Shown: positions 6,600-24,963 of the stretch, one piece after another
Layout: the number at the start of each line of letters is the position of its first letter
Numbering within the stretch: position 1 is the stretch's first letter
From: an uncultured virus (IMG/VR IMGVR_UViG_3300048503_000010)
Lineage: Duplodnaviria; Heunggongvirae; Uroviricota; Caudoviricetes
Direction: 5' to 3' (one strand)
DNA length: 28,016 nucleotides
IMG/VR virus record: IMGVR_UViG_3300048503_000010
Location: 62,001-90,016 of that record
Program-made: the position numbers and the translations under genes
The notes under the pieces: model-generated
Told to the model about the DNA's origin: nothing
Seen by the model: only the letters and a program-made list of their open reading frames with translations
Database searches by the model: none

Positions 6600-8465
6600 T
6601 TAGCGAACAGGGCACGTTCCCCCACTACACTCCAGACCTTCGATCATACTTCCCTCCCCAACATCATCCAATTTAATCGGCTTAATCTTAGCTGACATCT
6701 TTTGATACTGCTCAGCCGTGATTGCCTCTTTAGGTGCCTGCTTAAATCCGTGGTCACTGTGGCATAGAAAACTAATCGACTTGACAGAACTGAGATTTTG
6801 TGCTAGCCATTCTTTGATCTTAGGAATATCTGTGCGTTCATAATAGACTGTTACAGAAACTGCTTGGTCTGCCCAATGCTTCTGAGCAAACTTTAGTGTA
6901 TCAAGCTGCTTCCAAGTATTCCAGTCTTCATCTGCTACAGGGTAGCCATTAGGAGCCTGCACATAGAAGTCTACTACTTGAGTCTGCTGGTCAAGCGTTC
7001 CATCAAACAGAAGAACCGGCTCCATCTTATGTCCGGCTGCTCTCAGGCGGGGAATCAGTGGGTCATTGGATGCCACACGTATACGTTGAACTATGTATCG
7101 ACTAAATGCAGCATGTATACCCTCATAACCATTACAATCCATAACTTTTGACATAGTTCCAGATGGCTTACATAAAGTAGTTCTTTTACTAGTAGGAATT
7201 CCTAATTCTTTAGAGTATTTTTGGTCTTCTTCCTGAATTGCTGCATATGCTTTGTCAAGAACTTCTGGGACGAATAGGTTGGATGCCAAGCATCCGGTGA
7301 TTCCAATTCCTACCCTCCTGTTACGCTCAATGACAGCCTGAGTCACAGCATGGTGATATTTCTCCATGGTCACACGCTTAGTATACCTCAACATGAGCCT
7401 TGAAACCTTGATAAACTCCTCTTGAGATTCCAAATTACAAATTGGAATTTCTGCGAGGTTGCATGGCTCACCATTTTCAAGGGTAGCCTCCCCGCAGGGG
7501 TTTGTGCCTGTGGCTGAATCTGGCTTCAGTTCCCCCATTCTACCATACTTCTGAATTGCTGTCCGATTGACGATCCCAAAAGCTTCTCCCTGCTCGTAGG
7601 TCTTCCAAAACAGGGGATGCAAATCTTCAATGTCTTCACAGATCACAGAATAGTTGGCACAGCTACGGTGAGTAGGTATCGATCCTAAGTCCCAACGCTT
7701 AGCCTTTAGATACTCCTTGTCCCAACAATCCCCAAGAATAATGATTGCACTGCGCCGAACGTTTCCTGCCACGACCATCTCACCAGTAGCAGTAAGAAGA
7801 TCTGCCGCATCTATCGGCCTAACGTGCTTTCCTCCACGCGCAACAAGAATGGCACTCAAAGTCTCAACGAATCGAACGAGAGGCAATGGACCTGACGCCA
7901 CACCACCAAAGCCCACAATAGGTTCCCCATATCCTCGTACACAGACCGTAGAATAGGTGAATGGTTTTCCAGTAACAAAATAGCTCTCCAACACCCTGCG
8001 CGTAAGTTCACACCAGCCTTCTCTAGAATCAGGAATAATAAAGTCCGCATCCTTAGTTGCCTTGTGAGTTACGTGAACATCTTTCTTTACTTTTGGAAGC
8101 TTGCTTGTAAACTGGCTCTCAACACTCATTCCTACTCCACCACCTAACATGAGCAAATCCTGCGCTATTACAAAGTTGTTCCAATCATCTGCTGTGAAGA
8201 ACCAGCAGTTCACTAAAGCTGCCCCACCAATCCTGTCCTGCGCGGGCGCTCCTGAAAACCAATAGCCTCTTCCTGCCGGTCCAGCCTTGCGCTCATTCGC
8301 ATACTTGATTAGTTCTTTAATCTCTTCTTCAGGAACATTGTGTCCCTTTACATTTCCTGCAACCGCTCTTTCAACTGTTTGTTCCCAATTCTCATAACTT
8401 CCAGAATCCCTTCGGCTGTAGGTCCGGCGATAGACTATTCTAGAAAGATTTGACCACTCTTTCAT
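6600..8465 (-). CDS. nrdJ: Class II (adenosylcobalamin-dependent) ribonucleotide reductase
   Basis: VYRRTYSR, NCWF, VVAGNVRRSA, TNPCGE, PCNLAE, KPSGT, C-terminal CSGGTCPVR. Confidence 0.95.
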   Translation of the reverse strand: MKEWSNLSRIVYRRTYSRRDSGSYENWEQTVERAVAGNVKGHNVPEEEIKELIKYANERKAGPAGRGYWFSGAPAQDRIGGAALVNCWFFTADDWNNFVIAQDLLMLGGGVGMSVESQFTSKLPKVKKDVHVTHKATKDADFIIPDSREGWCELTRRVLESYFVTGKPFTYSTVCVRGYGEPIVGFGGVASGPLPLVRFVETLSAILVARGGKHVRPIDAADLLTATGEMVVAGNVRRSAIIILGDCWDKEYLKAKRWDLGSIPTHRSCANYSVICEDIEDLHPLFWKTYEQGEAFGIVNRTAIQKYGRMGELKPDSATGTNPCGEATLENGEPCNLAEIPICNLESQEEFIKVSRLMLRYTKRVTMEKYHHAVTQAVIERNRRVGIGITGCLASNLFVPEVLDKAYAAIQEEDQKYSKELGIPTSKRTTLCKPSGTMSKVMDCNGYEGIHAAFSRYIVQRIRVASNDPLIPRLRAAGHKMEPVLLFDGTLDQQTQVVDFYVQAPNGYPVADEDWNTWKQLDTLKFAQKHWADQAVSVTVYYERTDIPKIKEWLAQNLSSVKSISFLCHSDHGFKQAPKEAITAEQYQKMSAKIKPIKLDDVGEGSMIEGLECSGGTCPVR

Positions 8466-8548: not shown

Positions 8549-8917
8549 TTAGGCGATAACCTGTAACCTGCGATCTCCGGAACTCCACATAGCCTCCCGA
8601 ACTAAGCGGGGCATAATGACACAACCTTCACTGGCCGCACCGGGGTGAACAACACTATCTCCATGACAAAGGAATCCGCTGCGTCCCTCCATATCGTTTG
8701 CTGCATCTGGTGTTAGCCGCATGACAAATGGACCATGTTCTGTGGTATTAAAAGGCGGTCCTTCAATGGTGTAAAAACCTTCTGGAATTGGACCTACATC
8801 CTTCACGAATTGCTCTGCTGGATTATCATATCCAACACCCTGCATACCACTGTAACCTTTGCCAAATGGCTGACTATTTAAGGTCAACTCACCTGTACTT
8901 TGTTTGTATGTAAACAT
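8549..8917 (-). CDS. Tlde1/DUF2778-type L,D-transpeptidase/carboxypeptidase-like protein
   Basis: YxQSTG, GYSG, GPIPxGxY, RSGFLCHGDS...ASEGCVI; AAGGAG SD; no signal peptide. Confidence 0.88.
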   Translation of the reverse strand: MFTYKQSTGELTLNSQPFGKGYSGMQGVGYDNPAEQFVKDVGPIPEGFYTIEGPPFNTTEHGPFVMRLTPDAANDMEGRSGFLCHGDSVVHPGAASEGCVIMPRLVREAMWSSGDRRLQVIA

Positions 8918-10634: not shown

Positions 10635-10764
10635 TTTTCACCCTCTTAGGTAACTTTTTGCCCTTTGTTGGATCAAGCCACTCTTTCTTAACTTTTTCCT
10701 TTCCTCCAAACTCTTTTTGGTGGGTCATTATGTACCCTATTTGTGCCTTCGATTTTGCTGGCAT
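10615..10764 (-). CDS. Small basic phage protein MPAKSKAQ...EW...KGKKLPKRV (49 aa); not in ORF track
   Basis: AAGGAG SD. The MP-x-KSKAQ...LP-x-RV pattern is recalled from a common small phage protein family. Confidence 0.75.
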   Translation of the reverse strand: MPAKSKAQIGYIMTHQKEFGGKEKVKKEWLDPTKGKKLPKRVKNGKAVK

Positions 10765-11203
10765 TATTCTCCTTGATAATTCCACTTAACTTATCTAAAA
10801 AATCCGCATACCATGATGGGTCTATTACATTACCATCCTCATCATACAGTAACGGCCTATCGTCAATCAAGTTCCCGGTTGCTTGTGTGTCTAGAAGTAT
10901 AGCAATACAAGCAAGCGCATGGCCGAGATGGTGAACCTTGCTATCTCTGGCGCACTCTTCACCTTCAAACCAACAATCTAGATGACGCCTCGCCGCATCA
11001 ACATAAATACTAGCTTGGACTGACTTATCCCTGAAATTATACGGCCCGTATTTTCCGGCACCGTCCATCATTGCCATTGCTCCCCACGCTGTAGCAATTG
11101 CAGGAAGCTTTGTCAATGAAACTTTTTTACTACCTATAACATCCTTAGGATTAGGTCCGTCTGCTTTCGACTTTGGACTAATCCTGACATTCTTCTTTGG
11201 CAT
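10688..11203 (-). CDS. dATP/dGTP diphosphohydrolase domain protein (DUF5664-like)
   Basis: GAGKYGPYNFR...YVDAARRHL...EGE...DSKVHHLGHALACIAILLD; start MPKKN after GAGGAG. Confidence 0.88.
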   Translation of the reverse strand: MPKKNVRISPKSKADGPNPKDVIGSKKVSLTKLPAIATAWGAMAMMDGAGKYGPYNFRDKSVQASIYVDAARRHLDCWFEGEECARDSKVHHLGHALACIAILLDTQATGNLIDDRPLLYDEDGNVIDPSWYADFLDKLSGIIKENNASKIEGTNRVHNDPPKRVWRKGKS

Positions 11204-11384
11204 ATCTTGAAAATCTCCTCGCAATCTTCTCCAAAATATTATTCCACCAGTACCAACGTACTGCATATACTTTTACAGCATCTCTTGCCATAAGCATATA
11301 CTTATGACCATCATCGTGTATGAATAGTTCATGAACATCAATGTTACAGAAAAGAGAACTAGGACGAAAATCAACGATATTCAA
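11178..11384 (-). CDS. Small hypothetical protein, paralog of the upstream gene
   Basis: VDFxP...DGHxY...AVRWYW motif. Confidence 0.65.
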   Translation of the reverse strand: MNIVDFRPSSLFCNIDVHELFIHDDGHKYMLMARDAVKVYAVRWYWWNNILEKIARRFSRYAKEECQD

Positions 11385-13494: not shown

Positions 13495-13905
13495 CTACAC
13501 GAAAAATGTTAAAGAATTAAGATCAGCTACTCGTCGGTGAATTTCTAAATGATCTAAAATTTTCTCCTGAAACCACGGGTTTGTCACTGGCTCCGCAAGG
13601 TCTACGAAATAAACTGCCCCATTGGAAAGATCTGGAGAAGAGGAATCAAACACCCCTTCCACTGCGTGCAAAAGTTTGATGAATACGGGATCCCAAAGCA
13701 AAGGCATCTCATCTGATTTTTCCACGATAGCAGACTTTAGTGGCATGTCATGAATAACTTCTAACCAACTCCCCCAACCAAGTTTTACTCTGTTTGCGAT
13801 AACGTTCATTATGGCTGTAGAAGCAAGGTGTCCACCATACTTGTGCCCTGCTCTCCAGCCATACATGACGAGTTGCCCTTTCAAAAAGTCGTCTTGTCTT
13901 AACAT
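13495..13905 (-). CDS. SleB/Hydrolase_2-like cell wall hydrolase homolog, catalytic Glu apparently absent
   Basis: AIMNVIANRV, DLSNGAVYF, PWF and RVADLNSLTFF match the SleB pattern. WRAG sits where WxEA is expected. Confidence 0.7.
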   Translation of the reverse strand: MLRQDDFLKGQLVMYGWRAGHKYGGHLASTAIMNVIANRVKLGWGSWLEVIHDMPLKSAIVEKSDEMPLLWDPVFIKLLHAVEGVFDSSSPDLSNGAVYFVDLAEPVTNPWFQEKILDHLEIHRRVADLNSLTFFV

Positions 13906-16900
13906 TATTTTCCTCCTAATGAGTTAGCAGCATCTGCATAGACACTCTTGTTTGGTGTAGTGTTAGTAAACCCACCACCACCAAAAGTTTTTCCAATAGT
14001 GCCAACAACAGCCGGAGCCAACGTGCTTTTCAGGGTTGGGTTATTAAGAGCCTTGAGCGCCCCCCACATCTTAGGACTGTTAGCAACATCTTCCAAGATT
14101 TTCTTGACAACTGGTGCTCTCTCGCCCGCCATGGTTGCCATCACTCCAGCAAATGTATACGCCAAAGTGTGACCAAGCCAATAGGAACCAACCGCATGAC
14201 CTGCCATACCACCAGCTACTGCAAGAGACGGAGCCAGTATACCATACTTAACTGCATTCTTAACGGAATCCACATTTTGAAGACCGGCCATTAACTTATT
14301 GTAATTTGCGACTGCTTCCGGTGTAGGTCTAAAAAATGCATCCTTTACTTCTGGGGAATCTTTCAAAGACTTAGCAAAATCTAATAGCTTTGTTGTATCT
14401 ACCTTATCGCCAATTTCTCCAGTCGCAGTAGTTGCGGCTTCTCTCAACTGATTAGCCATAATCATTTTCCCAAGATCAGCCATATTTTCTGGACCAACAA
14501 CTTGGGCAAGATTCTTCACACGCTCTGGGTCTTTTAGTAATGAGGTAATATCCCCGTTGCCCAGTATCTGAGAAATAGATTTATCAATGTCCTTCAATGC
14601 TGCTGTAGCATTTGGAATTGTCCCAAGAGCATTAACATTCTGCACCTGAGAAATTGCATCCTGAAGCACCCCTGCCCTTATAGATTTACCAAACATCTCC
14701 TTGCGAACCTCAGAAGGAATTCTATTCCAGTTTGAAAATAACTTCTGGAAACTAAGTTCCCCTGTCTTTGGGTCAACAGAATCTGCTACAGTTCTCTGTA
14801 ATGAATCATCAGAAAATTTTCCAAAAGATTCTTCGCCAATTGCTTTTCTAAATGCCTGGATGTCCTTGATGCTTGTTTCCCCGCCCATAAAACGCTTGGC
14901 AATATTATTGCTATTACCTTGTAAAGCAGCCTTAACATCTGCGTTCTGATAAGGTTGAATACCGTTTCTGTAATCCGTATTCATCTTGGTGACTTGATTA
15001 ACCAAGTCTGGTTTACCAGATTTCTCAGCTAATTGTTGAAGAGTGTCATGTATACCATCCTTCAATTCGAAATAGATGTCACGATCTGCGTTTTGCTCAT
15101 CTGTCATCCACCCGGTATTACGAATCAACTTATTTATTTTTTTCTCATAAAAAAGAAGATGATCGGCAGTTAGCTGTGTCGGTTCTCCCTTATCATTTAT
15201 ACCCAGTGTTCCTTCGGTATCTGAAAGTGCATCGACTAACGCATTGGCCTTTGCTGAGCCGGGACGAGTAACTGAAAAAGCCTGATCCAGAGGAGCAGCG
15301 GAATCTTGACCACCTTGCGCAATCGTCTGAGCCGCTTTCTGCAAAGGGCTTCCTGCAAAATCAACAGTAGTCCCGCTTGCTGCCTTTTTAATAGCACCGG
15401 CCTGTGCTTGATAATTTGTCCCTAAAGCATCATGTGCATCTTTAGCATACTTCTGCGCTGATTGAGTTATCTCGGATGCGGTCGGTGCATTTCGTGCAAG
15501 GTCATTCCCAATCTCTCCTGCTTGTGAAATAGTATCGTTTCCCTGATTTAACGCCTCTTGCGCTGCCTCTCGTTGAGGGGCAAACGCGTCATTTACCTTA
15601 GAGGCTAATTCAGAGTTAACGTTAGCACGAGTAGGAACAACAGGAGACTTACTTCTAGGGGGAGAGGTCTTTCCCTCTGCGAATTGGAGATTCTTAGTTA
15701 ATTCAAGACTGTCGGGGTCTGTTTCAAAGGCGTGACGAATTTTCACCCACTCCGGGTGTTTGGCTTCTAATTCAGCAATTCTTGCCGAAATGTTTTCCTG
15801 ACCAGCAGCCCGGTCATTCCAGCTACCATACATTTTCTCGGTTCCGGTTTGCTCTAAAACTTTTCCTGCACCGGTTTCCTCAGCAGCCTGTTTCACTGCG
15901 TCACGAAGTTGCCCCCCAGTACTAGATACTACAACATCATATCCGCTCGGAGTAGGAATTAAGGTTCTATTTTCAATCCCGTTCTTGTCCAACACTTCGG
16001 CAATAGAGGCAGGTCCAGCTTCGGAAGAAGGAACATGAAATCTAAACAGAGAATCGTCTCCTTCTCCGGGATGGAAGGACATAACAGCTTTCTGTCTAGT
16101 TACTCTCCCCATCAAAGCGGTATGATAATCTACTGCATCGGGGTCAGTACTCGGATCAAACCTACTTGTCGTAGAATTTTCCGCTCCATCTTTCCAATTT
16201 CCCAGAGAGTCTTTCGTTTCAGCATCCAACCCCAACATCCCAGACAAGCGTTGAGACAAGTTTTTTGTAAGACCTTGCTCTTTGGAAGAAAGCTGTTTTT
16301 GAGCGTCTCCTATTCCTCCTAAATTTTCGTAAACATTTGGGCTGACAAAAGAGTATGCCGTTTTCTCGTCCCTATACGCAGGACTGACATTAACAGGGGC
16401 AAAAGACTTTACAACCCCTTGACTACGATAGCCGTCAAAACCATTTTGTTTAATCAACTCTTCAACATTTTGTCCAAAAGGCTTTCCGTTTTTCTGAGTA
16501 AGTTCCTGCGCCTGTGTTTGAATGTTGAGAGGATCGGCATCTCGATCATACATCTTATTGTAGTCGATCTGGCCGGAATACTTATATGGTCTTGCTTGTA
16601 TCTGAGGTTCCTTTACTCCGGGTTCATAGAACTGTGTTCCCGGAACTACAGGACGTTTTGTTTCTGCGCCATTACCAATTTGCGTAGCGTTAGGATCAGT
16701 AACCTTCATACCCTTCTTATAGCTCCAGTGTTCAACTGGACGCATATCAGTTCCTGCCTCTCCCGCTCCAGTCCCTTCACCGACCTTGGATAACAAATCA
16801 TCTATAGTATTAGCTGCCTGTCCACCTTTTCCAATAACAGAACTAATAGCTGACATCGGAGCATCGAGCAATCCACCCGTTATTGCCATGTTCTTTGCAG

Positions 16901-17789
16901 AACTCCAAGCAGCCGCTTGATCTCCGGGGTTGTGCAATTCAGATTGTACACCCTGCACTGCTCCTGCTTCAGTTCCATGCAGTGCGGCAAGACTGGTAAT
17001 CCTCGCACCAACTCGCAGTGCGTTTGCAAGACGTGGAGAGCCTTGAATAGTCTTCATGGCTTTTGCAGCACGCTCAAGACGTACCGCATAAGGCAAAGCT
17101 TGAAGAGCTTCATCACCAAGAATGAACTCACCGATATTGGAAATACCTTGACCTAACAATTCTGGACCAGATGCTTGTTCATTATCTCCAGCAACCTCAT
17201 GCAACCATGCACGTGCAAAATCAGGCAATGTTGGGAGAACAGGTTGCAATGCTGCGTGTAACTCCGCACGTTTCACAGGGTCTTTAATACCTAAAGTATC
17301 AGCGGCCTTCTCACCCAAGTTGTATGATATATCATCAAGCGTGGCAATTGATTTTAAAGGAGTCTCACCCATTCCTGAAACAGTCTCAGCAGCACCTAGC
17401 CCAATTCCCTCGGCATTCCCAGACACACCACCTTTGGCAAAAGCAGCGTTGCGCTCTTGGGAAAGTTCACTGGCTGGTTTGGGTTTCTCTGCCTGTTTGT
17501 AAGCTGGATTAGATACAAACTCACTGTCCTCTGGATTTGGTTTATAGCTAGGATTAGCTGCAAATGTATTGTCATCTACCGAGGGACCAGTCTGCATCTC
17601 ATTGGCAGGGGTAGTCACATCAGATACATTGCCTTCATTTGGAGGGTTAGAAACACCTTCCAAAGAAGAGGAGGGAGTTTGTGCTTCTCCCCCCGGCATA
17701 ACAGAACCAGTATGTACCGTATCTATTCCACCGGGATTTCCTGTTACGGTATATCCCGGACCTTTTTCGACCACTTGTTGACCAGCCAT
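13905..17789 (-). CDS. Large internal virion (ejection) protein, polyvalent-type, with an internal enzyme-like cassette
   Basis: 1294 aa, Ala/Gly helical segments, last of three ejection-like genes; internal ART-like and SAM-lyase-like motifs. Confidence 0.7.
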   Translation of the reverse strand: MAGQQVVEKGPGYTVTGNPGGIDTVHTGSVMPGGEAQTPSSSLEGVSNPPNEGNVSDVTTPANEMQTGPSVDDNTFAANPSYKPNPEDSEFVSNPAYKQAEKPKPASELSQERNAAFAKGGVSGNAEGIGLGAAETVSGMGETPLKSIATLDDISYNLGEKAADTLGIKDPVKRAELHAALQPVLPTLPDFARAWLHEVAGDNEQASGPELLGQGISNIGEFILGDEALQALPYAVRLERAAKAMKTIQGSPRLANALRVGARITSLAALHGTEAGAVQGVQSELHNPGDQAAAWSSAKNMAITGGLLDAPMSAISSVIGKGGQAANTIDDLLSKVGEGTGAGEAGTDMRPVEHWSYKKGMKVTDPNATQIGNGAETKRPVVPGTQFYEPGVKEPQIQARPYKYSGQIDYNKMYDRDADPLNIQTQAQELTQKNGKPFGQNVEELIKQNGFDGYRSQGVVKSFAPVNVSPAYRDEKTAYSFVSPNVYENLGGIGDAQKQLSSKEQGLTKNLSQRLSGMLGLDAETKDSLGNWKDGAENSTTSRFDPSTDPDAVDYHTALMGRVTRQKAVMSFHPGEGDDSLFRFHVPSSEAGPASIAEVLDKNGIENRTLIPTPSGYDVVVSSTGGQLRDAVKQAAEETGAGKVLEQTGTEKMYGSWNDRAAGQENISARIAELEAKHPEWVKIRHAFETDPDSLELTKNLQFAEGKTSPPRSKSPVVPTRANVNSELASKVNDAFAPQREAAQEALNQGNDTISQAGEIGNDLARNAPTASEITQSAQKYAKDAHDALGTNYQAQAGAIKKAASGTTVDFAGSPLQKAAQTIAQGGQDSAAPLDQAFSVTRPGSAKANALVDALSDTEGTLGINDKGEPTQLTADHLLFYEKKINKLIRNTGWMTDEQNADRDIYFELKDGIHDTLQQLAEKSGKPDLVNQVTKMNTDYRNGIQPYQNADVKAALQGNSNNIAKRFMGGETSIKDIQAFRKAIGEESFGKFSDDSLQRTVADSVDPKTGELSFQKLFSNWNRIPSEVRKEMFGKSIRAGVLQDAISQVQNVNALGTIPNATAALKDIDKSISQILGNGDITSLLKDPERVKNLAQVVGPENMADLGKMIMANQLREAATTATGEIGDKVDTTKLLDFAKSLKDSPEVKDAFFRPTPEAVANYNKLMAGLQNVDSVKNAVKYGILAPSLAVAGGMAGHAVGSYWLGHTLAYTFAGVMATMAGERAPVVKKILEDVANSPKMWGALKALNNPTLKSTLAPAVVGTIGKTFGGGGFTNTTPNKSVYADAANSLGGK

Positions 17790-17798
17790 TTAATCTCC

Positions 17799-20654
17799 TT
17801 ACTGCGTCGGTTGACCCGTTGCGATAATATACTTATGACCCGAACCATCCATGCCAATTTTACCGGACTTGCTTATCTGTGCATATTGAGAAGTATCATT
17901 GGGTTTAAATTGTTGTTGTTGCCCGGCCCCGCTTTTCTCCCACGGCGTGTCTAACCCATAGTTTTTAAAAATTTTAGTTGCTCCACTGGGAACATTGATT
18001 AAATGCGTCTGAGTAATATCATAAGTATTTTCATCAATTGCGCTAATTCTTCCATACATCAGTTTAGTTACAGCCTCGATAGCCCCTTCTTTCTGTGCTA
18101 AAGTAAGAGCACCCTTAAAGTTATCTTCATTCTTCTTTACCTGATCTTCATATGGAACCGCCCCGCCTGCACTTACCTTGCTGGCCTCTTGAATTGCAAT
18201 TGGAAGAATTGCATTATAAATTACAACCGGAGATGCGCCGGTCTGGAAATGATAAGTATTTATTAGGGAGTTTAGATAGGGCATTGTAGTTAAATCGCCA
18301 TTCATTGCTCTAGCTGCCTGCTCTAAATTAGTTAAATGCTGCGCAGCCACTCCAGCATTCTGAATAGCCATGCCATTCTTAGAGTTTCCAGATGCATTCT
18401 CAGCAAGTACTTTCTGAGCCGGTATATAATTCTTTTGGTCATATCCAGGATTAATAAACTCATTGATGTATGACGCACCCGTTTGAGCATCCATTTCATT
18501 GGGAGAAAATTTCTGCGCTGTTCTCACTGGAAGAATGGTGCTTATTGGTGCTTTAAGGTGTCCTACTAACCACAGGGCATCAAAGTTAAACGGAATCTTG
18601 ACTCCCTGCTTAATCAGTGCAGCTTTGGCATCAACGGAATTCATATCAAAAACTTTAGGATCAAATTTGAAATTATCAGGAGGAACTAAAAATGCCTGCT
18701 GAGCAGATGATATTTTTGCATCACTCGCTGCTTTAAAGTTAGCTTTCTCTTCTGCTGCTTTCACTCCTACATCAGATTTTTCCTGCAAACGCTGCGCAGT
18801 AAGCGCATCGTCGTGATCACGAATAAAATCAGGATTTCCTTGATTCATAAATGCGGCAATATTATTAGCCGCTGAGTCATTTCCTGTAGAATGAAGATGA
18901 GCAAGTGCGTCACCAATCATATCAGCTTTGTCGGATGTAAGCCCGTTCATAGCTCCCATAAAAGCTTCCATATCTGAACCTGTAGTAGGGTTCTTGGCAT
19001 TCCATTGTTCTAACGACAATCTATTAGCCGGGGCCGCATTAGGAACAGCATTTGGGTTAGGTGATGGTTTCTCTCCCAAACCAACCATACTCGACACACT
19101 ATTAACATAATTCTGTGTATTTTCCGCAGAGTGTTGGGCGGTATCTTGTATTTCTCCATTGGGGCCAATCGCAGAAGGACCACTATAATAAGCTGCAAAA
19201 GCTTTTTTAGGATCATCCTTATAGGTCTTCAATAATTGAGAAAGGTATGCCGTACCAGCATTCACATTCTGCTCTGGATCAAATGGATTTTTAGGATACA
19301 AGTTTCCCATAGATGGGGTAAGCTGCATCAGACCTTTGGCTCCTGTAGGACTTACAGCATTCGGATTACCGTGGCTCTCTTGTGTAATCAAAGCCTTTAC
19401 ATATTCGGGACGAACTCCATTAGTCGTAGCCGCTGTTTCAGCTAATGAGGAAATTTTTGGGTCTTTAATTTCAGGAGACTTCGTAGGAGTTACCGAACTT
19501 CCTTGAGGATTCTGTCCCGCTGCATCTCCCTCTTTAAACATACTAGCAACTTTAGCATTACCAACATTCCAGCTAGCAAGCTTTGACTTAATATTTAAGA
19601 AATTAGCTAACTCGATTGGAGATGTCATCACTGAGTCGTTTCCTGCCCATGACAATCCCATTTCTTTTGCTGTAGCCATGTCGTCTTTTGTGAACAAATT
19701 AGTAAGTTTTAGTCCGGGTTTCACAATGTAGTAATCAACATCCCATTGTGGTACACCTTGGGCATTCTTCACCTGTTTACCGTCTGACCCCAAACGTGCA
19801 ACACGCATAAATGGAATTGCATTATCCGCCGTTACATTGTACTTTGCAAAATCACTATACTTAACCGGACCTTCGATGAAGTTAGGAGCCTTCTCTTTAA
19901 GCAAGTTCAAGGTTGGAGTATACTGACCAATATACTTATCGGTTGATTCTTCCTCCATATTCCCCACAGTACGAGCCATAGAGTACATTCTAAGGTTTGT
20001 CTCAGTCACTTGTGCTTTATTTGCAAAATCTTCCTGTGCCTGTTTTTGTGCTGCTTGATCCTGTTGCTGTCTCTGACCTGCAATTTCCTCACCTTTTTGA
20101 AGACCGGCTGCTCCAGCGTTACCTAAGAAATTCGGACCCGGCTTTGCTCCCAATCCTGCAAATGCTCCTGATAACATTTCCATAGCAATAGCAAGACCTA
20201 AATGCTTCCCACTAACGGGAACCTCAGTTTTTATCGTCTTTCCAGAGTCATCAACCGTATAGGAATAGCGGGGACCACCAGTAAAAATTTGTGCTATTTT
20301 TGTAACCCTTGACGCCGTCTTTTTGGACGCTTCTAGAGAAGGATCAGGAGTAGCGGGATTTACCGGAGCATTAGGAGTCACAGATGTAGCGTTTTTAGAC
20401 GCAGGAGAGGGTTTGCCGTCTTGTGCTGGCTGTGCCTGTTGCCCCGGCTGCGTCGCCTGCGTTGGCTGCGCTGGCTGTGTCGCTTGCGCTGCTTGAGTTG
20501 GCTGTGCAGCTTGCACCGGTTGCGCTGGAGCAGTTGCTACAGATGTGTTACCAACATCTCCCGCCGTGCCATCGGGAGGAGGAGTTGACACTCCCTGATA
20601 TGGGCTAGACGCTGAATCTTGAGTATCTACTACTGCTGAACTTGGAGTTGGCAT
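17799..20654 (-). CDS. Internal virion (ejection) protein with a lytic transglycosylase (SLT) domain
   Basis: ITQESHGNPNAVSPTGAKGLMQL...DPEQNVNAGTAYL...AFAAYYSG at about 19080-19440; AQP/TQ-rich N-terminus. Confidence 0.88.
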   Translation of the reverse strand: MPTPSSAVVDTQDSASSPYQGVSTPPPDGTAGDVGNTSVATAPAQPVQAAQPTQAAQATQPAQPTQATQPGQQAQPAQDGKPSPASKNATSVTPNAPVNPATPDPSLEASKKTASRVTKIAQIFTGGPRYSYTVDDSGKTIKTEVPVSGKHLGLAIAMEMLSGAFAGLGAKPGPNFLGNAGAAGLQKGEEIAGQRQQQDQAAQKQAQEDFANKAQVTETNLRMYSMARTVGNMEEESTDKYIGQYTPTLNLLKEKAPNFIEGPVKYSDFAKYNVTADNAIPFMRVARLGSDGKQVKNAQGVPQWDVDYYIVKPGLKLTNLFTKDDMATAKEMGLSWAGNDSVMTSPIELANFLNIKSKLASWNVGNAKVASMFKEGDAAGQNPQGSSVTPTKSPEIKDPKISSLAETAATTNGVRPEYVKALITQESHGNPNAVSPTGAKGLMQLTPSMGNLYPKNPFDPEQNVNAGTAYLSQLLKTYKDDPKKAFAAYYSGPSAIGPNGEIQDTAQHSAENTQNYVNSVSSMVGLGEKPSPNPNAVPNAAPANRLSLEQWNAKNPTTGSDMEAFMGAMNGLTSDKADMIGDALAHLHSTGNDSAANNIAAFMNQGNPDFIRDHDDALTAQRLQEKSDVGVKAAEEKANFKAASDAKISSAQQAFLVPPDNFKFDPKVFDMNSVDAKAALIKQGVKIPFNFDALWLVGHLKAPISTILPVRTAQKFSPNEMDAQTGASYINEFINPGYDQKNYIPAQKVLAENASGNSKNGMAIQNAGVAAQHLTNLEQAARAMNGDLTTMPYLNSLINTYHFQTGASPVVIYNAILPIAIQEASKVSAGGAVPYEDQVKKNEDNFKGALTLAQKEGAIEAVTKLMYGRISAIDENTYDITQTHLINVPSGATKIFKNYGLDTPWEKSGAGQQQQFKPNDTSQYAQISKSGKIGMDGSGHKYIIATGQPTQ

Positions 20655-21891: not shown

Positions 21892-24800
21892 TTAATAGAC
21901 CACTGATACTACACCAGCGACTCTGTAAAAATCTCCTACTGCAAGTCCACCTGCTATGGCAAGAGCATTAGTTGAATATAACGGAAGACCAACTACAGCT
22001 AAAGGACTGTTCGGCGTTGTTGTCCCGATGCCGACGTTGCCGTTTAATAACGTCTTCGTTACCGCACTATTTCCCAAAACTACCTGATTGCTTGCCGTTA
22101 CCTGAGCACCGTTACCAAGAGCCATTGAGTTGGTTATTCCGTCTACCGATGAGTTAGCACCATAACCAAGGAAGGTGCTGTTGGTCATTGTTTGTAGTGC
22201 GACATCAGAATTGTAGCCAGCCTGGTACCCCTGCGCGGAGTTTCTGCTGCCTGTCGTGTTGGAGTAAAGGGCACTGACCCCCTGCGCGGAGTTGCTGCTG
22301 CCTGTCGTGTTGGAGTAAAGGGCTCCGGCCCCCTGCGCGGAGTTGCTGCTGCCTGTCGTGTTGAATTGAAGGGCGATGGCCCCCTGCGCAGAGTTGTAGT
22401 AGCCTGTCGTGTTGGATTGAAGGGCGATGGCCCCCTGCGCAGAGTTGTAGTAGCCTGTCGTGTTGGAGTAAAGGGCACTGACCCCCTGCGCAGAGTTGTA
22501 GTAGCCTGTCGTGTTGGAGTAAAGGGCTCCGACCCCCTGCGCAGAGTTGTAGTAGCCTGTCGTGTTGGACTGGAGAGCATTCATACCTACCGCCGTATTA
22601 TATGAACCCGTATATACATTTGTGCCGTCATACACTGAACTCTGTCCACCTCCACCGATGAAGATGTTGTTTCCTGAAGTAGAAGTTGGTTTGAAAGTAG
22701 AAATGAGAGCAGGAGTGCCGTTGGTGTTTACATTGATGTTGCCTGAAACATCCAGCTTTTGACCTGGTGCCGTCGTCCCGATGCCGACGTTGCCCGCCGT
22801 ATGCCCAGTATAATTCCCATCAATCCGTGCGTACTCTGTGTTGTTTTCGTTGAACGTGATCGCGTTTTTATTTGCGTCACTACGAGCGCTTCCACCCAAA
22901 AATATTGATGCGCCAGTTGTCGATGTCGGACCTTCTGCGTTGATGATTAAATACCCCCCAGTCCCATACGTCGTGCCGACGGTCTGGGTCGTGGCATCAA
23001 GGGCGATACCAGACGAACCCTGCTGAAATGTAGTAGTACCGGCGTTGGTAAACGAATTCGCTGCATTAAGCAAGGGAACATTGCTGGCTACAATACCGCT
23101 ATCGGCAATCTGACCCGCTGCACCAGTAAAGCTAACTAAATCTCCATTTGTGGAAGATGTTGGACCCGTAGGAATAGACGCACCACTTCCTGTTAATGAT
23201 TTACCAGCAACTGCACTCACGGCGGGGGTAGCGGTGGTTACCGCCGTCAACTGTCCGGCTGCATTATATGTTAATATGGGAATTGCTGTTGTGCTTCCAA
23301 TGGGTCCAGCCGCTGTAATTGTTCCGCCTTTTACTACAGTGCTTGAACTAGTTCCGGTAGGCAGGTATGCTATACCAACCGTGCCAGACGATATATTGCT
23401 GGCGTTGGCTGCGAAAGTTTCTGCATTGCTCTGCGCTGTAGCTGCTGCTCCACTGGTATCATATACACTCGCGCCAATGGCTGTCTGGATGTTGGCTGAA
23501 GTCGCTGCCGTTATTGCACTAGATGAGGAGAATGCTGCAATATTAGGACTAACTGGAGAACCGCTAAGAGTAACTGTTCCCACAGGAACTGCCCCTCCGT
23601 CGGTGATACTTGTCCCTGAAGTGTTGCCCATAACTGCTAGATGACCAACGGTTGCACCGCTGCCCGGACCCGTGACGGGGTTGGTCAGTGTAGCTTGCTT
23701 TGTCGAGGTTGCTATCGCAGACCATGAATCGAGATTTGCGCTATGAGCTTCAGTGTTTGTCCCGATGACAAGCCCTAGCGTTGTTGGTGTGACCGCTGCC
23801 GCCGCACCCGATACATCTGCTCCAATAGCCGCTGGCGTGATCGTAGCCGTGGTCACAGCAGTCAACTGCCCTGCCGCATTGTAAGTAATTACCGGCACAA
23901 CTGATGGGCTTCCGGTTGGACCACCCGCTGCAATCACCCCGCCTTGTGCTGCCGTGCCACTCGTAGTGCCAAAGCCGGGGAAAGACGTAGGAACTACTCC
24001 ACCGTCTGCTATCACGTCGCCCGAAGTAGCATTTATTATTGCCAAATGGCCAACCGTCGCGCCGCTGCCCGGTCCTGTAACTGGGTTAGTAAGTGCTGTC
24101 TGGAAATAGGATGTTGCCTTTGTGGAAGCAGTTCCAAGAGACAATGCAGTTATGGATGCATTTACAAAAGCATCGGTTGCAAGGTCTGCTGTATTATCAC
24201 CTGTAGTCTGTGTAGCTGCCTTCGTACCAGAGGGTAAAGTTGGCGTTCCACTAAGATTGGATGCTGTGCCTGAAGTATTTGCTGCATTAGCTGGAATATC
24301 CCCACTTATTAATGTAGGCAGTTGAGCATGTGGAAGAGTACCAGTTGTAAGATCAGATGCTGAAACTACAACATTGCTGCTAAGTGCATGACCATTGACC
24401 GTAGTACTAGTTGGAACTCCCCCTAAACCGCTCAGCGTCACCGCCGCCGCCGCACCCGCCACATCAGCCCCTACAGTATGATAATCAATAGTGACCGCCG
24501 CGCTGCCGTTAAAAGTTGTACCCGGAGCCGCACCGCCAGTTGCCGCCGCTGTAAGTGCATCCGTGGTTGTACCACCACCGCCGCTCCCTGTTGGAACTGA
24601 GTAATGTCCAGACTCGTCTAGATAACTGGTTGACGCTCCTGTGTTGATTGGGAGAACATGTGAAGCATCAACATTTAGAGTTAAAGCAGGGGTAGGACCA
24701 CCAGAAGATGAACCTTCAAAACCATTGGCAGTAACAACTGAAACTGCTGTAACCGTGCCAATGCCGCTCGGTAGATCATCAATAACTATTGCGCGTAAAG

Positions 24801-24963
24801 AGGCTACACCCGAACTTCCATTCGGTGTAGCCATAACTTCATTTGCAGTACCAGAAGGCTCAGACACTGTAAGCGCTGCAACTCCAGCATTAACTGTTAC
24901 AGCACTGGCTCCGGGGAAAGTAAAATCGATTTCATTTATTCCGTTCACGTTACATTTTGTCAT
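21892..24963 (-). CDS. Tail fibre / receptor-binding protein
   Basis: Gly/Thr/Ala-rich, duplicated modules, two GNVGIGTT motifs and a NTTG-x-xN-x-A-x-G beta-solenoid repeat. Confidence 0.88.
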   Translation of the reverse strand: MTKCNVNGINEIDFTFPGASAVTVNAGVAALTVSEPSGTANEVMATPNGSSGVASLRAIVIDDLPSGIGTVTAVSVVTANGFEGSSSGGPTPALTLNVDASHVLPINTGASTSYLDESGHYSVPTGSGGGGTTTDALTAAATGGAAPGTTFNGSAAVTIDYHTVGADVAGAAAAVTLSGLGGVPTSTTVNGHALSSNVVVSASDLTTGTLPHAQLPTLISGDIPANAANTSGTASNLSGTPTLPSGTKAATQTTGDNTADLATDAFVNASITALSLGTASTKATSYFQTALTNPVTGPGSGATVGHLAIINATSGDVIADGGVVPTSFPGFGTTSGTAAQGGVIAAGGPTGSPSVVPVITYNAAGQLTAVTTATITPAAIGADVSGAAAAVTPTTLGLVIGTNTEAHSANLDSWSAIATSTKQATLTNPVTGPGSGATVGHLAVMGNTSGTSITDGGAVPVGTVTLSGSPVSPNIAAFSSSSAITAATSANIQTAIGASVYDTSGAAATAQSNAETFAANASNISSGTVGIAYLPTGTSSSTVVKGGTITAAGPIGSTTAIPILTYNAAGQLTAVTTATPAVSAVAGKSLTGSGASIPTGPTSSTNGDLVSFTGAAGQIADSGIVASNVPLLNAANSFTNAGTTTFQQGSSGIALDATTQTVGTTYGTGGYLIINAEGPTSTTGASIFLGGSARSDANKNAITFNENNTEYARIDGNYTGHTAGNVGIGTTAPGQKLDVSGNINVNTNGTPALISTFKPTSTSGNNIFIGGGGQSSVYDGTNVYTGSYNTAVGMNALQSNTTGYYNSAQGVGALYSNTTGYYNSAQGVSALYSNTTGYYNSAQGAIALQSNTTGYYNSAQGAIALQFNTTGSSNSAQGAGALYSNTTGSSNSAQGVSALYSNTTGSRNSAQGYQAGYNSDVALQTMTNSTFLGYGANSSVDGITNSMALGNGAQVTASNQVVLGNSAVTKTLLNGNVGIGTTTPNSPLAVVGLPLYSTNALAIAGGLAVGDFYRVAGVVSVVY
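22228..22570 (-). repeat. Seven near-identical 51-nt coding tandem repeats (17 aa NTTGYYNSAQGVGALYS)
   Basis: GCCTGTCGTGTT ends at 22260, 22311, 22362, 22413, 22464, 22515 and 22566. Confidence 0.95.

What the first reader, a model, noticed from the sequence alone, without database searches (positions are those of the whole stretch)
15780..16360. SAM-lyase-like domain embedded in a large virion ejection protein
Seen: residues about 478-575 read AYSFVSPNVYENL...TKDSLGNWKDGAENST...YHTALMGRVTRQKAVMSF. Known: the phage SAM lyases (T3 SAMase family) have an N-terminal strand with VS, a G-x-[YW]...E-x-[ST] motif and a helix ending in Q-x-x-V. They degrade SAM and counter type I R-M and BREX, and are normally small stand-alone early proteins. 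Here the same order and similar spacing (E537, Q566) occur inside a 1294-aa ejection-like protein. Inference: a pre-made anti-defence SAM lyase could be injected with the DNA, acting before any phage gene is expressed. The match is by eye at low identity.
Basis: partly seen in the sequence, partly recalled or inferred. Interest (0 to 1): 0.85.

Follow-up and report, generated by a model that had tools for sequence, protein, structure and literature searches.

The report
SAM-lyase-like domain in phage virion protein
A large internal virion protein of a soil podophage carries a domain that looks like a distant, shortened relative of the phage enzymes that destroy S-adenosylmethionine, so the phage may deliver a ready-made counter-defence enzyme together with its DNA; no activity has been tested.

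Summary
The quoted strings, E537 and Q566 sit where stated in a 1294-aa ORF (window 13905-17789, minus strand).

The stretch is a real domain of about 210 aa (aa 476-688). A profile search found 1439 cluster representatives. No Pfam, PHROG or NCBIfam model hits it.

G530, E537, Q566 and R660 are invariant in 150 of 150 relatives; W532 is kept in 149.

E537 and Q566 lie at the T-loop end and in the B-loop, the places of the catalytic Glu and conserved Gln of SAM lyases.

Direct profile comparison with SAM lyases is not significant (P 0.03-0.06). A small family of 85-116-aa proteins, one encoded by this same phage, bridges the two at 88-90% hhalign probability.

Relatives are fused to portal, MuF, toxin and Acb1 domains, and the gene follows an SLT internal virion protein.

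Differences: a 6-residue shorter T-loop, no PF23780 hit, K in place of D/E after the Gln, and an extra second unit. Trimer formation, activity and injection are untested. I rate it a new variant of a known kind.

The parts
13905..17789 (-). Gene for the 1294-aa protein P0001. It sits in the internal-virion/ejection-protein slot of the structural module.
   Evidence: ORF list and translation. No Pfam or PHROG hit for the whole protein. It lies directly downstream of the SLT-domain protein. Same gene order as Tunturi_3 gp24-gp25.
15726..16364 (-). Conserved ~210-aa domain (aa 476-688) shared with phage polyvalent and head-associated proteins.
   Evidence: BLASTP blocks. Profile search found 1439 representatives, and P0001 matched at aa 476-688. 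AF2 model pLDDT 94.0, pTM 0.90.
16059..16358 (-). N-terminal ferredoxin-like unit (aa 478-577, b1-a1-b2-b3-a2-b4): the SAM-lyase-like core.
15726..16058 (-). Second ferredoxin-like unit plus two C-terminal helices (aa 578-688). It carries invariant R660 and has no counterpart in the 92-94-aa bridging proteins.
16338..16349 (-). F481-V-S483-P484 at the end of strand b1.
   Evidence: S483 in 148/150 and P484 in 146/150. hhalign pairs S483 with S16 of T3 SAMase (low-confidence alignments).
16173..16202 (-). G530-N-W532-K-D534-G-A-E537-N-S539: the b2-b3 hairpin (a short 'T-loop') carrying the candidate ligand-binding Gly, Trp, Glu and Ser.
   Evidence: G530 150/150, W532 149, D534 147, G535 149, A536 146, E537 150, N538 141, S539 137 of 150. 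In the model these are residues 61-70, at the end of b2 and start of b3. Aligned to G/Y-W/E/S-T of the bridging family and of SAM lyases.
16089..16094 (-). Q566-K567 between helix a2 and strand b4 (the 'B-loop' position).
   Evidence: Q566 150/150 and K567 148/150. Model residues 97-98 lie between H81-94 and E99. Q aligns with Q94 of T3 and Q79 of the bridging family.
15810..15812 (-). R660, invariant, at the start of the first C-terminal helix.
   Evidence: 150/150. Model residue 191. Its role is unknown.
17799..20654 (-). Upstream neighbour: 951-aa protein with an SLT lytic transglycosylase domain (internal virion protein type).
   Evidence: Pfam SLT E 6.8e-25. phrog_342 'internal virion protein with endolysin domain' E 5e-22. 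Weak match to Tunturi_3 gp24.
21892..24963 (-). 1023-aa tail-spike-like virion protein further upstream in the same minus-strand module.
   Evidence: phrog_23837 virion structural protein E 7e-21 and phrog_4636 tail spike E 2e-15.

Best explanation
Amino acids 476-688 of the 1294-aa protein form a domain whose N-terminal half is a divergent member of the SAM-lyase (PII-like lyase) superfamily. It has the ferredoxin-like b1-a1-b2-b3-a2-b4 core, a Gly-x-Trp at the end of b2, a Glu-x-Ser at the start of b3 and a Gln just before b4. These are the same places where SAM lyases hold the ribose, the sulfonium and the amino group of SAM.

Most likely the domain binds SAM, or a close SAM-derived molecule, and promotes its intramolecular cleavage to methylthioadenosine (or its derivative) and homoserine lactone.

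The domain sits in a protein in the internal-virion/ejection slot of a podophage related to an Acidobacteria phage, and its relatives are fused to portal and MuF head proteins. The enzyme would therefore be packed in the capsid and enter the cell with the DNA, acting on SAM-dependent defences or signals before any phage gene is expressed. The phage also has a small stand-alone relative for later.

Shown: the conserved domain, its fold, residue conservation and topological placement, remote homology through a bridging family, and the virion-associated gene context.

Inferred: ligand identity, catalysis, oligomeric state, packaging and injection.
For: 1. The strings and residues are as reported.
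2. The domain family has 1439 representatives at E<=1e-3 and 558 at E<=1e-30.
3. G530, E537 and Q566 are kept in 150/150, W532 in 149/150, S539 in 137 plus 9 T.
4. The AF2 model has pLDDT 94.0. G61/W63 lie at the end of b2, E68/S70 at the start of b3, and Q97 between a2 and b4.
5. Passages of PMC12255297 place the catalytic Glu at the C-terminal end of the T-loop (b2-b3) and the conserved Gln in the B-loop (a2-b4). They state that only these two residues are structurally conserved between SAM and SAM-AMP lyases.
6. PMC7877911 names G56, E69 and Q104 as the only strictly conserved residues, with Y58 packing on the substrate.
8. Bridging family of four 85-116-aa proteins (A8): against the domain Prob 89.7%, E 1.8e-6; against 24 diverse PF23780 SAM lyases Prob 88.0%, E 3.2e-6. 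The same G, Y/W, E, S/T and Q line up in both. Real scores exceed all 60 column shuffles and all 60 block shuffles in each case. Two of the four bridging proteins have S-AdoMet_lyase as their only Pfam hit, E 0.011 and 0.0017.
9. Virion context. SLT internal virion protein directly upstream; TerL and portal in the same wrapped module. TerL is 56% identical to podovirus Tunturi_3, with the same SLT-then-large-protein order. Of 36 relatives scanned, 7 carry portal domains and 1 carries MuF; others carry DUF2213, ART, Zeta toxin and Acb1. Head or virion genes lie within three ORFs in 11 of 13 loci.
Against: - No direct sequence support. PF23780 does not hit the domain at E<=1 or in the own-genome scan at E<=10. 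hhalign of the domain against SAM lyases gives Prob 0.1-2%, P 0.023-0.48. PDB sequence searches find no SAM lyase.
- The bridging profile is thin (4 sequences, Neff 1.8). Much of its score comes from local motifs: block-shuffle maxima are 31.4 against 43.3 and 35.2 against 38.6.
- The b2-b3 connection is a tight turn, 6 residues shorter than the 10-12-residue T-loop that encloses the substrate.
- R19 and N27, invariant in 24 SAM lyases, have no counterpart. K567 replaces the D/E that follows the Gln.
- The extra invariant R660 and a whole second unit are unexplained.
- Trimer formation could not be tested, and no residue-level superposition was possible.
- Kinetics (inference): at about 9.5 turnovers per second (Svi3-3), a few injected copies would take many minutes to clear a cellular SAM pool. 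The pool size is recalled, not from a call.
- The syntenic protein of Tunturi_3 lacks the domain, so it is dispensable cargo.
- No virion proteomics were found for this group in the passages retrieved.
Confidence: 0.5

Rival explanations
1. The domain is homologous to PII-like proteins and SAM lyases but is not an enzyme. It is a ligand-binding, regulatory or assembly module that helps polyvalent or head proteins bind a nucleotide, the portal, or the capsid interior. That would explain why it recurs next to many different effector domains.
For: - It occurs with very different partner domains and at any position in proteins of 193-3849 aa, like an adaptor.
- It lies mostly between portal and capsid genes, the slot of MuF-type head proteins.
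- Invariant K567 and R660 would suit phosphate binding.
- The short T-loop cannot enclose a substrate as in Svi3-3.
Against: - The invariant set G, W, E, S, Q matches the lyase ligand-binding set rather than PII motifs.
- SAM lyases outrank PII proteins by about 2 Z units.
- Stand-alone ~250-aa forms exist (L009, L028, L031).
- Invariant polar residues in loops are more typical of an active site than of a packing surface.
Confidence: 0.27
2. The substrate is not bulk SAM but a low-abundance SAM-derived immune signal such as SAM-AMP (type III CRISPR-CorA), or another sulfonium nucleotide. A few injected enzyme copies could realistically destroy such a signal.
For: - Invariant basic residues K567 and R660, absent from SAM lyases, could hold the extra phosphate.
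- One relative (P0061) carries the signal-degrading Acb1 domain in the same protein.
- A phage SAM-AMP lyase fused to another domain is known (passage).
- The kinetic argument against bulk SAM depletion by a few molecules (inference).
Against: [quoted passage not shown]
- Z differences between SAM-AMP and SAM lyases are under 1, which counts as tied.
- There is no evidence on the hosts' CRISPR types.
Confidence: 0.15
3. The resemblance is convergent or due to chance. The domain is one more tandem ferredoxin-like module unrelated to SAM lyases, and the shared G-x-aromatic, E-x-S and Q are coincidental.
For: - Direct profile comparison is not significant.
- The bridging alignments are short (49-61 columns) and motif-driven.
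Against: - All solved SAM/SAM-AMP lyase entries cluster at the very top in three independent searches and reappear in BFVD.
- The residues invariant in both families fall in the same secondary-structure places.
- The bridging family scores 88-90% to both sides with consistent residue pairing.
Confidence: 0.12
4. The protein is a virion or tail component that never reaches the cytoplasm. Alternatively, the domain acts in the producing cell (for example during head assembly or on newly made DNA) rather than as an injected enzyme.
For: - No proteomics or ejection data exist for this phage group in the passages retrieved.
- Only two weakly hydrophobic segments were found.
- The counterpart in Tunturi_3 is unrelated in sequence, so the slot's function is not defined by homology.
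Against: - Position after the SLT internal virion protein in a phage whose nearest cultured relative (TerL 56% identical) is a podovirus.
- Fusions of the domain to portal and MuF, which the polyvalent-protein paper reads as packaged and injected (passages of PMC5512222).
Confidence: 0.2

Closest known systems
Phage SAM lyases (T3 gp0.3 SAMase, Svi3-3; Pfam PF23780 S-AdoMet_lyase; PDB 6ZM9, 6ZMG, 6ZNB, 7OCK, 8BB1, 9LQD)
   Same: Ferredoxin-like b-a-b-b-a-b core. Gly-x-aromatic at the end of b2, Glu-x-Ser/Thr at the start of b3, Gln-x-x-Val before b4, Ser after b1. They are the nearest solved structures of the N-half, and are linked by a bridging family.
   Different: - No PF23780 hit.
- T-loop 6 residues shorter.
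- Trp in place of Tyr; Lys in place of Asp/Glu after the Gln.
- No equivalents of R19 and N27.
- An added second ferredoxin-like unit and two helices, with invariant R660.
- Embedded in a 1294-aa virion protein rather than a 130-170-aa early protein.
- Trimer and activity untested.
[quoted passage not shown]
   Different: No detectable sequence similarity. The T-loop there is 10-12 residues and carries substrate contacts. The substrate of the present domain is unknown.
Small 85-116-aa proteins found here: G000:39623-39904, Tunturi_3 gp112, L100, L101
   Same: Same short hairpin spacing (G-x-[YW]-K-x-x-x-E-[DN]-S) and N-x-Q before b4. hhalign Prob 89.7% to the domain. One is encoded by the same phage.
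   Different: They are a single minimal unit that stands alone, in the non-structural part of the genome. They have a TEDVNRD motif after b1 that the domain lacks. They are themselves uncharacterised.
Polyvalent proteins and MuF- or portal-fused effectors of phages (Iyer et al. 2017, PMC5512222)
   Same: Relatives of the domain sit in multi-domain proteins with portal, MuF, ART-PolyVal, Zeta toxin, Acb1, topoisomerase IB and DUF7178, usually in head gene modules.
   Different: In the passages I retrieved from that paper by term search, 'ferredoxin' and 'S-adenosyl' each occur 0 times. P0001 itself has no other recognisable domain.
Podovirus ejection / internal virion proteins (T7 gp14-gp16 type) and packaged enzymes (T4 Alt, P1 DarB, N4 vRNAP)
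   Same: Large protein directly after an SLT-bearing internal virion protein in a podophage-like module; the concept of a pre-made enzyme delivered with the DNA.
   Different: No sequence similarity to any of them. The comparison with T7, T4, P1 and N4 rests on recalled knowledge and on abstracts listed.
PII / GlnB-like signalling proteins and CutA
   Different: Lower scores than the lyases. PII motifs are not present.

Membership tests
SAM lyase family (PF23780 / Svi3-3-like PII-like lyases) | Ferredoxin-like b1-a1-b2-b3-a2-b4 core | tested here: met
   DSSP of AF2 models: E9-13, H24-49, E54-63, E66-75, H81-94, E99-. The family description comes from passages.
SAM lyase family (PF23780 / Svi3-3-like PII-like lyases) | Structure closest to solved SAM lyases | tested here: met
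SAM lyase family (PF23780 / Svi3-3-like PII-like lyases) | Strictly conserved Gly with an aromatic two residues later (G56, Y58 of Svi3-3; G55, Y57 of T3) | tested here: met
   G530 150/150 and W532 149/150. They pair with G/Y in hhalign through the bridging family. Trp replaces Tyr.
SAM lyase family (PF23780 / Svi3-3-like PII-like lyases) | Catalytic Glu at the C-terminal end of the T-loop, followed by Ser/Thr at +2 | tested here: met
   E537 150/150; S539 137 S plus 9 T of 150. These are model residues 68 and 70, just after the b2-b3 turn. Placement is by topology and alignment only; there is no coordinate superposition.
SAM lyase family (PF23780 / Svi3-3-like PII-like lyases) | Conserved Gln in the B-loop between a2 and b4 | tested here: met
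   Q566 150/150. Model residue 97 lies between H81-94 and E99. It aligns with Q94 of T3.
SAM lyase family (PF23780 / Svi3-3-like PII-like lyases) | T-loop (b2-b3 hairpin) of 10-12 residues that encloses the substrate | tested here: not met
   The model shows a 2-residue turn between E54-63 and E66-75. hhalign needs a 6-residue gap against SAM lyases. G to E spacing is 7 against 13.
SAM lyase family (PF23780 / Svi3-3-like PII-like lyases) | Score over the curated cut-off of Pfam PF23780 | tested here: not met
   No hit at E<=1. No hit on this gene in the own-genome scan at E<=10.
SAM lyase family (PF23780 / Svi3-3-like PII-like lyases) | Profile-profile similarity to the family | tested here: inconclusive
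   Direct: Prob 0.1-2%, P 0.023-0.48. Through the 4-sequence bridging family: Prob 89.7% and 88.0%, above all 60 shuffles of each kind.
SAM lyase family (PF23780 / Svi3-3-like PII-like lyases) | Other invariant residues of the T3-type family (R19, N27, D/E95, G125) | tested here: not met
   These are invariant or nearly so in 24 sequences. In the alignment, R19 pairs with V486, and position 486 is not conserved. K567 stands where D/E95 does. No counterpart of N27 was seen. G125 could not be placed.
SAM lyase family (PF23780 / Svi3-3-like PII-like lyases) | Homotrimer with active sites at subunit interfaces | not testable with these tools
SAM lyase family (PF23780 / Svi3-3-like PII-like lyases) | Cleavage of SAM to MTA and homoserine lactone | not testable with these tools
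   Needs a biochemical assay.
SAM lyase family (PF23780 / Svi3-3-like PII-like lyases) | Small stand-alone protein | tested here: not met
   Of 89 family proteins found, 88 are 77-197 aa and one is 234 aa; that search could only see proteins of 73-272 aa. This domain lies inside a 1294-aa protein. Stand-alone ~250-aa forms of the domain exist elsewhere.
Polyvalent / head-packaged effector proteins (Iyer et al. 2017) | Several unrelated domains in one polypeptide, with fusions to portal or MuF and a virion gene context | tested here: met
   True of the domain family: 7 portal fusions, 1 MuF, 3 Zeta toxin, ART, Acb1 and others among 36 scanned, with 14 of 36 showing no Pfam domain; 11 of 13 loci sit next to head or virion genes. 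P0001 itself has only this one recognisable domain.
Podovirus internal virion / ejection proteins | Large gene following the lytic-transglycosylase internal protein in the structural module of a short-tailed phage | tested here: met
   Gene order. TerL is 56% identical to Tunturi_3, which has the same order gp24-gp25. Tunturi 3 has podovirus morphology (table passage).
Podovirus internal virion / ejection proteins | Presence in virions and ejection into the host | not testable with these tools
   The term search of the Tunturi paper found 0 occurrences of 'mass spectrometry' and 'structural proteins'.

The most novel reading that the evidence does not exclude
A family of more than 1400 sequence clusters, so far without any database model, consists of SAM-lyase-derived enzymes that soil phages pack into their capsids, fused to portal, MuF, ejection or toxin modules. 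On this reading, phages inject them with the DNA as a first-minute counter-defence that destroys SAM or SAM-derived immune signals such as SAM-AMP before any phage gene is read, backed up by a minimal 90-aa stand-alone version expressed later.
Probability: 0.35. Interest if true: 0.85.

Novelty: new variant of a known kind. Interest (0 to 1): 0.72.

Why it matters
SAM lyases are known as small early phage proteins that disarm type I restriction and BREX, and SAM-AMP lyases as candidate anti-CRISPRs. A pre-packaged, injected version would close the time gap between DNA entry and first gene expression, when phage DNA is most exposed.

It would also give a function to a very large unannotated domain family of polyvalent and head proteins in phages of poorly studied soil phyla (Acidobacteriota, Planctomycetota).

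The bridging 90-aa proteins would define the minimal SAM-lyase fold.

All of this is directly testable with simple enzyme assays and point mutants.

Tried and rejected
**Searches that found nothing**
- tblastn of the whole protein, of the domain and of a typical family member (P0124) against 50,697 phage records: no match.
- PDB sequence searches with the domain and with profile A1: no SAM lyase. The best hit was eS1 at E 6.9e-4, treated as noise.
- ESM Atlas: no usable hit.
- NCBIfam: none for 10 proteins. PHROGs: no model covers the domain in 13 relatives.
- Earlier findings of this scan: nothing.
- Literature: DUF7178/PF23802 gave 0 papers. Two searches combining SAM lyase, SAMase, polyvalent, MuF, portal, injected, packaged and ejection terms returned no title or abstract reporting a virion-packaged SAM lyase.

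**Readings considered and rejected or downgraded**
- That the shared block was the DUF7178 domain. The two lie at different places in P0002-P0005.
- Direct hhalign of the domain against three SAM-lyase alignments is not significant, so direct sequence membership is rejected.
- That Tunturi_3 gp25, the syntenic protein, carries the domain. It does not.
- The RND-pump and ACT-pair matches of the full model are read as the generic tandem-ferredoxin arrangement, not as functional leads.
Full report
**1. The observation**

The window holds a 1294-aa ORF on the minus strand at 13905-17789. Residue 537 is Glu and residue 566 is Gln. The finding's coordinates correspond to aa 477-670.

**2. A real, widespread, unnamed domain**

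Pfam and PHROGs give nothing for the protein, and NCBIfam gives nothing. A word-indexed search with aa 420-720 found five distant large proteins at 30-34% identity.

Pairwise BLASTP showed one shared block, P0001 aa 480-665. It lies at different positions in each partner and is separate from their DUF7178, ART-PolyVal and DUF2213 domains.

A profile of six such segments (A1) was searched against 1.84 billion cluster representatives. It found 1439 proteins at E<=1e-3, 1127 at E<=1e-10 and 558 at E<=1e-30. The domain sits anywhere in proteins of 213 to 3849 aa.

Among the 150 best hits, conservation is as follows:

| Residue | Kept in (of 150) |
|---|---|
| G530, E537, Q566, R660 | 150 |
| W532, G535 | 149 |
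| S483, K567 | 148 |
| D534 | 147 |
| P484, A536 | 146 |
| N538 | 141 |
| S539 | 137, plus 9 Thr |

**3. Fold**

AlphaFold2 with a 30-sequence alignment gave a confident model of aa 470-690 (pLDDT 94.0, pTM 0.90). It shows two tandem b-a-b-b-a-b (ferredoxin-like) units followed by two helices.

- G530 and W532 close strand b2.
- E537 and S539 open strand b3, after a tight turn.
- Q566 and K567 lie between helix a2 and strand b4.
- S483 and P484 follow b1.

By the topology of this fold, all of these lie at the same edge of the sheet (inference).

**4. Comparison with solved and predicted structures**

*Full domain.* Foldseek lists tandem-ferredoxin proteins first, at low TM-scores. The T3 SAM lyase (8bb1_E) has the best TM-score of the list (TMt 0.52, E 1.9e-3, rank 14).

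A Foldseek-independent scan of 48,161 PDB representatives gave the following:

|---|---|---|---|---|
| 1 | 7b8r_A | RND pump | 8.0 | 158 |
| 2 | 6zm9_A | SAM lyase Svi3-3 | 8.0 | 110 of 129 |
| 7 | 7ock_L | T3 SAMase | 7.0 | 124 of 152 |
| 11 | 9gab_D | SAM-AMP lyase | 5.9 | 97 of 129 |

*Viral predicted structures (BFVD).* Seventeen large proteins of uncultured phages come first. The names given for some of them are RelA/SpoT, 'Large polyvalent protein associated domain' (twice) and 'Inorganic pyrophosphatase domain'. Then come small proteins of named cultured phages:
- a 'S-adenosyl-L-methionine hydrolase' of Vibrio phage Vc1 at rank 21;
- a 142-aa protein of Salmonella phage Spp16 at rank 31, where T3 SAMase matches a 142-aa CDS at 33% identity.

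**5. What defines SAM lyases, and how the domain compares**

From passages and sections 7 and 11 of PMC7877911:
- Svi3-3 is a trimer of ferredoxin-like sandwiches with active sites at the interfaces.
- Only G56, E69 and Q104 are strictly conserved.
- Y58 packs on the substrate.
- A b-hairpin encloses the ligand.

From passages of PMC12255297:
- The fold is b1-a1-b2-b3-a2-b4.
- The catalytic Glu sits at the C-terminal end of the T-loop (b2-b3).
- The conserved Gln sits in the B-loop (a2-b4).
- Only these two residues are structurally conserved between SAM and SAM-AMP lyases.

E537 and Q566 occupy exactly these topological places in the model, and G530-x-W532 matches G-x-Y.

I fetched T3 SAMase and built alignments of 17, 10 and 24 family members. 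In the 24 diverse sequences the invariant residues are R19, N27, G55, Y57, E68, Q94 and G125. V13, S16, E59 and L98 are nearly invariant.

The domain shares S, G, aromatic, an acidic residue at G+4 (D534 against E59), E, S/T and Q. It lacks R19 and N27 and has Lys where the lyases have Asp/Glu95. The G to E spacing is 7 against 13, which means a much shorter T-loop.

**6. Sequence-level tests**

Direct tests fail:
- PF23780 does not hit the domain.
- hhalign of the domain alignments against the SAM-lyase alignments gives Prob 0.1-2% and P 0.023-0.48. Most of these low-confidence alignments still pair G with G, W with Y and Q with Q, and searches also pair S with S. One search is off by one at G-x-W, and one search does not cover that region.

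The own-genome scan with PF23780 gave a weak hit elsewhere in the same phage, at G000:39704-39940 (19.5 bits). The 94-aa ORF there reads G-M-Y-K-G-E-W-E-D-S ... N-K-Q-E-S. That is the short spacing of the virion domain combined with the Q-E-S of Svi3-3.

I found three relatives:
- gp112 of Tunturiibacter phage Tunturi_3;
- an IMG/VR ORF reading IGAWKGQRENS ... NQQESVLIL;
- an IMG/VR ORF reading TGYWKSGEEDS ... NGQECCMV.

The four-sequence profile (A8) scores as follows:

| A8 compared with | Prob | E-value | Columns |
|---|---|---|---|
| Virion-domain profile A1 | 89.7% | 1.8e-6 | 61 |
| Deeper alignment A2 | 60% | 8.7e-5 | 53 |
| 24 SAM lyases (A6) | 88.0% | 3.2e-6 | 49, with a 6-residue T-loop gap |

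The same G, Y/W, E, S/T and Q are paired on both sides.

Shuffle controls, n = 60 each:

| Control | Against A1 (real score 43.3) | Against A6 (real score 38.6) |
|---|---|---|
| Column shuffle, maximum | 19.0 | 17.4 |
| 10-column block shuffle, maximum | 31.4 | 35.2 |

The real scores beat all shuffles, but much of the signal is local motif. Two of the four small proteins have S-AdoMet_lyase as their only Pfam hit (E 0.011 and 0.0017, below the cut-off).

I read this as fair but not conclusive evidence of remote homology through an intermediate.

**7. Host protein and genome context**

The window is the last 28 kb of a 90,016-bp virus record, 94% complete. The minus-strand module wraps from the start of the record into the window in this order:
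1. Large terminase and portal at the start of the record.
2. A tail-spike-like 1023-aa protein.
3. Two small ORFs.
4. A 951-aa protein with an SLT domain (phrog 'internal virion protein with endolysin domain').
5. The 1294-aa protein.

The terminase has one match among cultured phages: Tunturiibacter phage Tunturi_3, at 56% identity over its full length. Tunturi_3 has the same order, an SLT protein gp24 followed by a 1070-aa gp25. Its paper describes Tunturi 3 as a podovirus of an Acidobacteriota host (table passage).

gp25 has no similarity to P0001 and lacks the domain. The slot therefore holds variable cargo.

Of 36 relatives scanned with Pfam:
- 7 carry portal domains;
- 9 carry DUF7178;
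- 3 carry Zeta toxin;
- 4 hit ART-PolyVal (2 of them over the cut-off);
- 2 carry a pyridine nucleotide-disulphide oxidoreductase;
- 1 each carries MuF, DUF2213, ADP-ribosyltransferase exoenzyme with Acb1, and topoisomerase IB;
- 14 have no Pfam domain.

In 80 viral loci, 79 ORFs carrying the domain were called, 193-2672 aa long. They include stand-alone forms of about 250 aa in L009, L028 and L031.

In 13 loci whose neighbours I scanned, 11 have portal, protease, capsid, scaffold, adaptor, MuF-like or internal-virion genes within three ORFs.

In GTDB species genomes, one exact-motif scan found nine loci, all in MAGs: six Acidobacteriota, one Armatimonadota and two Planctomycetota. This fits the absence from cultured phage genomes.

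**8. Interpretation**

Shown:
- a conserved domain;
- its fold;
- invariant residues at the lyase ligand-site positions;
- a homology bridge to SAM lyases;
- a virion-associated context.

Inferred:
- that it binds and cleaves SAM or a SAM derivative;
- that it is packaged and injected.

Points against:
- the short T-loop and the missing R19 and N27;
- K567 and R660, which SAM lyases lack;
- the unexplained second unit;
- the untested trimer;
- the kinetic doubt that a few injected molecules, at about 9.5 turnovers per second (Svi3-3), could clear a cell's SAM pool quickly. The pool size is recalled, not from a call.

That last doubt makes a low-abundance SAM-derived signal such as SAM-AMP an attractive alternative substrate. 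A non-catalytic PII-like binding or assembly role is the main rival.

**9. Novelty**

My literature searches and the passages I read of the polyvalent-protein paper turned up no description of this domain or of a virion-packaged SAM lyase. I rate it a new variant of a known kind. It has the SAM-lyase superfamily core, but with a shortened loop, in tandem form, embedded in virion and polyvalent proteins.

Noticed in passing
L004:1420-1704 (= G000:C1:39623-39907, plus strand; outside the window): The same phage encodes a 94-aa stand-alone protein with G-M-Y-K-G-E-W-E-D-S ... N-K-Q-E-S and a weak PF23780 hit (16-19.5 bits). With three relatives it forms a minimal ~90-aa SAM-lyase-like family that bridges the virion domain and canonical SAM lyases.
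   Followed up: yes
L099:1498-1776 (Tunturiibacter phage Tunturi_3 gp112, PP885686): This 92-aa member of the small SAM-lyase-like family is annotated 'ATP-dependent DNA ligase' in the record, and the 198-aa gene next to it as 'portal protein'. Both labels look wrong for proteins of that size.
   Followed up: partly
L003:901-1359 (phage T3 NC_003298 gene 0.3) and many rows: The T3 SAM lyase and many homologues are annotated 'SAM-dependent methyltransferase' in public records, although the sequence is identical to the SAM lyase of PDB 7OCK/8BB1.
   Followed up: partly
window 15990-16010 and 15963-15965 region (aa 597 and 608 of P0001): Two positions that are His in 131 and 134 of 150 relatives are Ala and Arg in P0001, and Arg/Arg in 13-14 relatives. 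The change is coupled, which suggests the two residues work together in the second unit.
   Followed up: no
window 16428-16763 (aa 343-454 of P0001): The stretch before the domain has a weak match (E 0.001, 29% identity) to P0003 aa 1183-1288, just upstream of that protein's ART-PolyVal domain. It may be a second shared module.
   Followed up: no
window 10688-11266 (-): A 192-aa protein with the N-terminal domain of dATP/dGTP diphosphohydrolase (PF18909, E 4e-22). Such enzymes can accompany modified-base DNA pathways (recalled, not from a call).
   Followed up: no
window 8549-8917 (-): A 122-aa protein with a Tlde1 domain (PF10908, E 2.5e-11; phrog_24118 over its full length), next to a class II ribonucleotide reductase gene at 6600-8465.
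   Followed up: no
L002:12778-13374 (-) and L002:6556-7446 (-): A homing-endonuclease-like gene lies between terminase and portal, and an HNH endonuclease gene lies further down the head module of the same phage.
   Followed up: no
L006, L030, L031, L066 (neighbours of the domain gene) and P0006 aa 138-295: Another unnamed module, matching phrog_2859 positions ~307-473, recurs in proteins next to or fused with the domain, including a portal fusion. DUF7178 and phrog_3842 also recur.
   Followed up: no
L005 (IMGVR_UViG_3300037148_000025, 89,414 bp) and L098: A second, near-identical phage genome from another sample carries both the 1294-aa protein (domain 100% identical) and the 94-aa ORF (100% identical).
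   Followed up: partly
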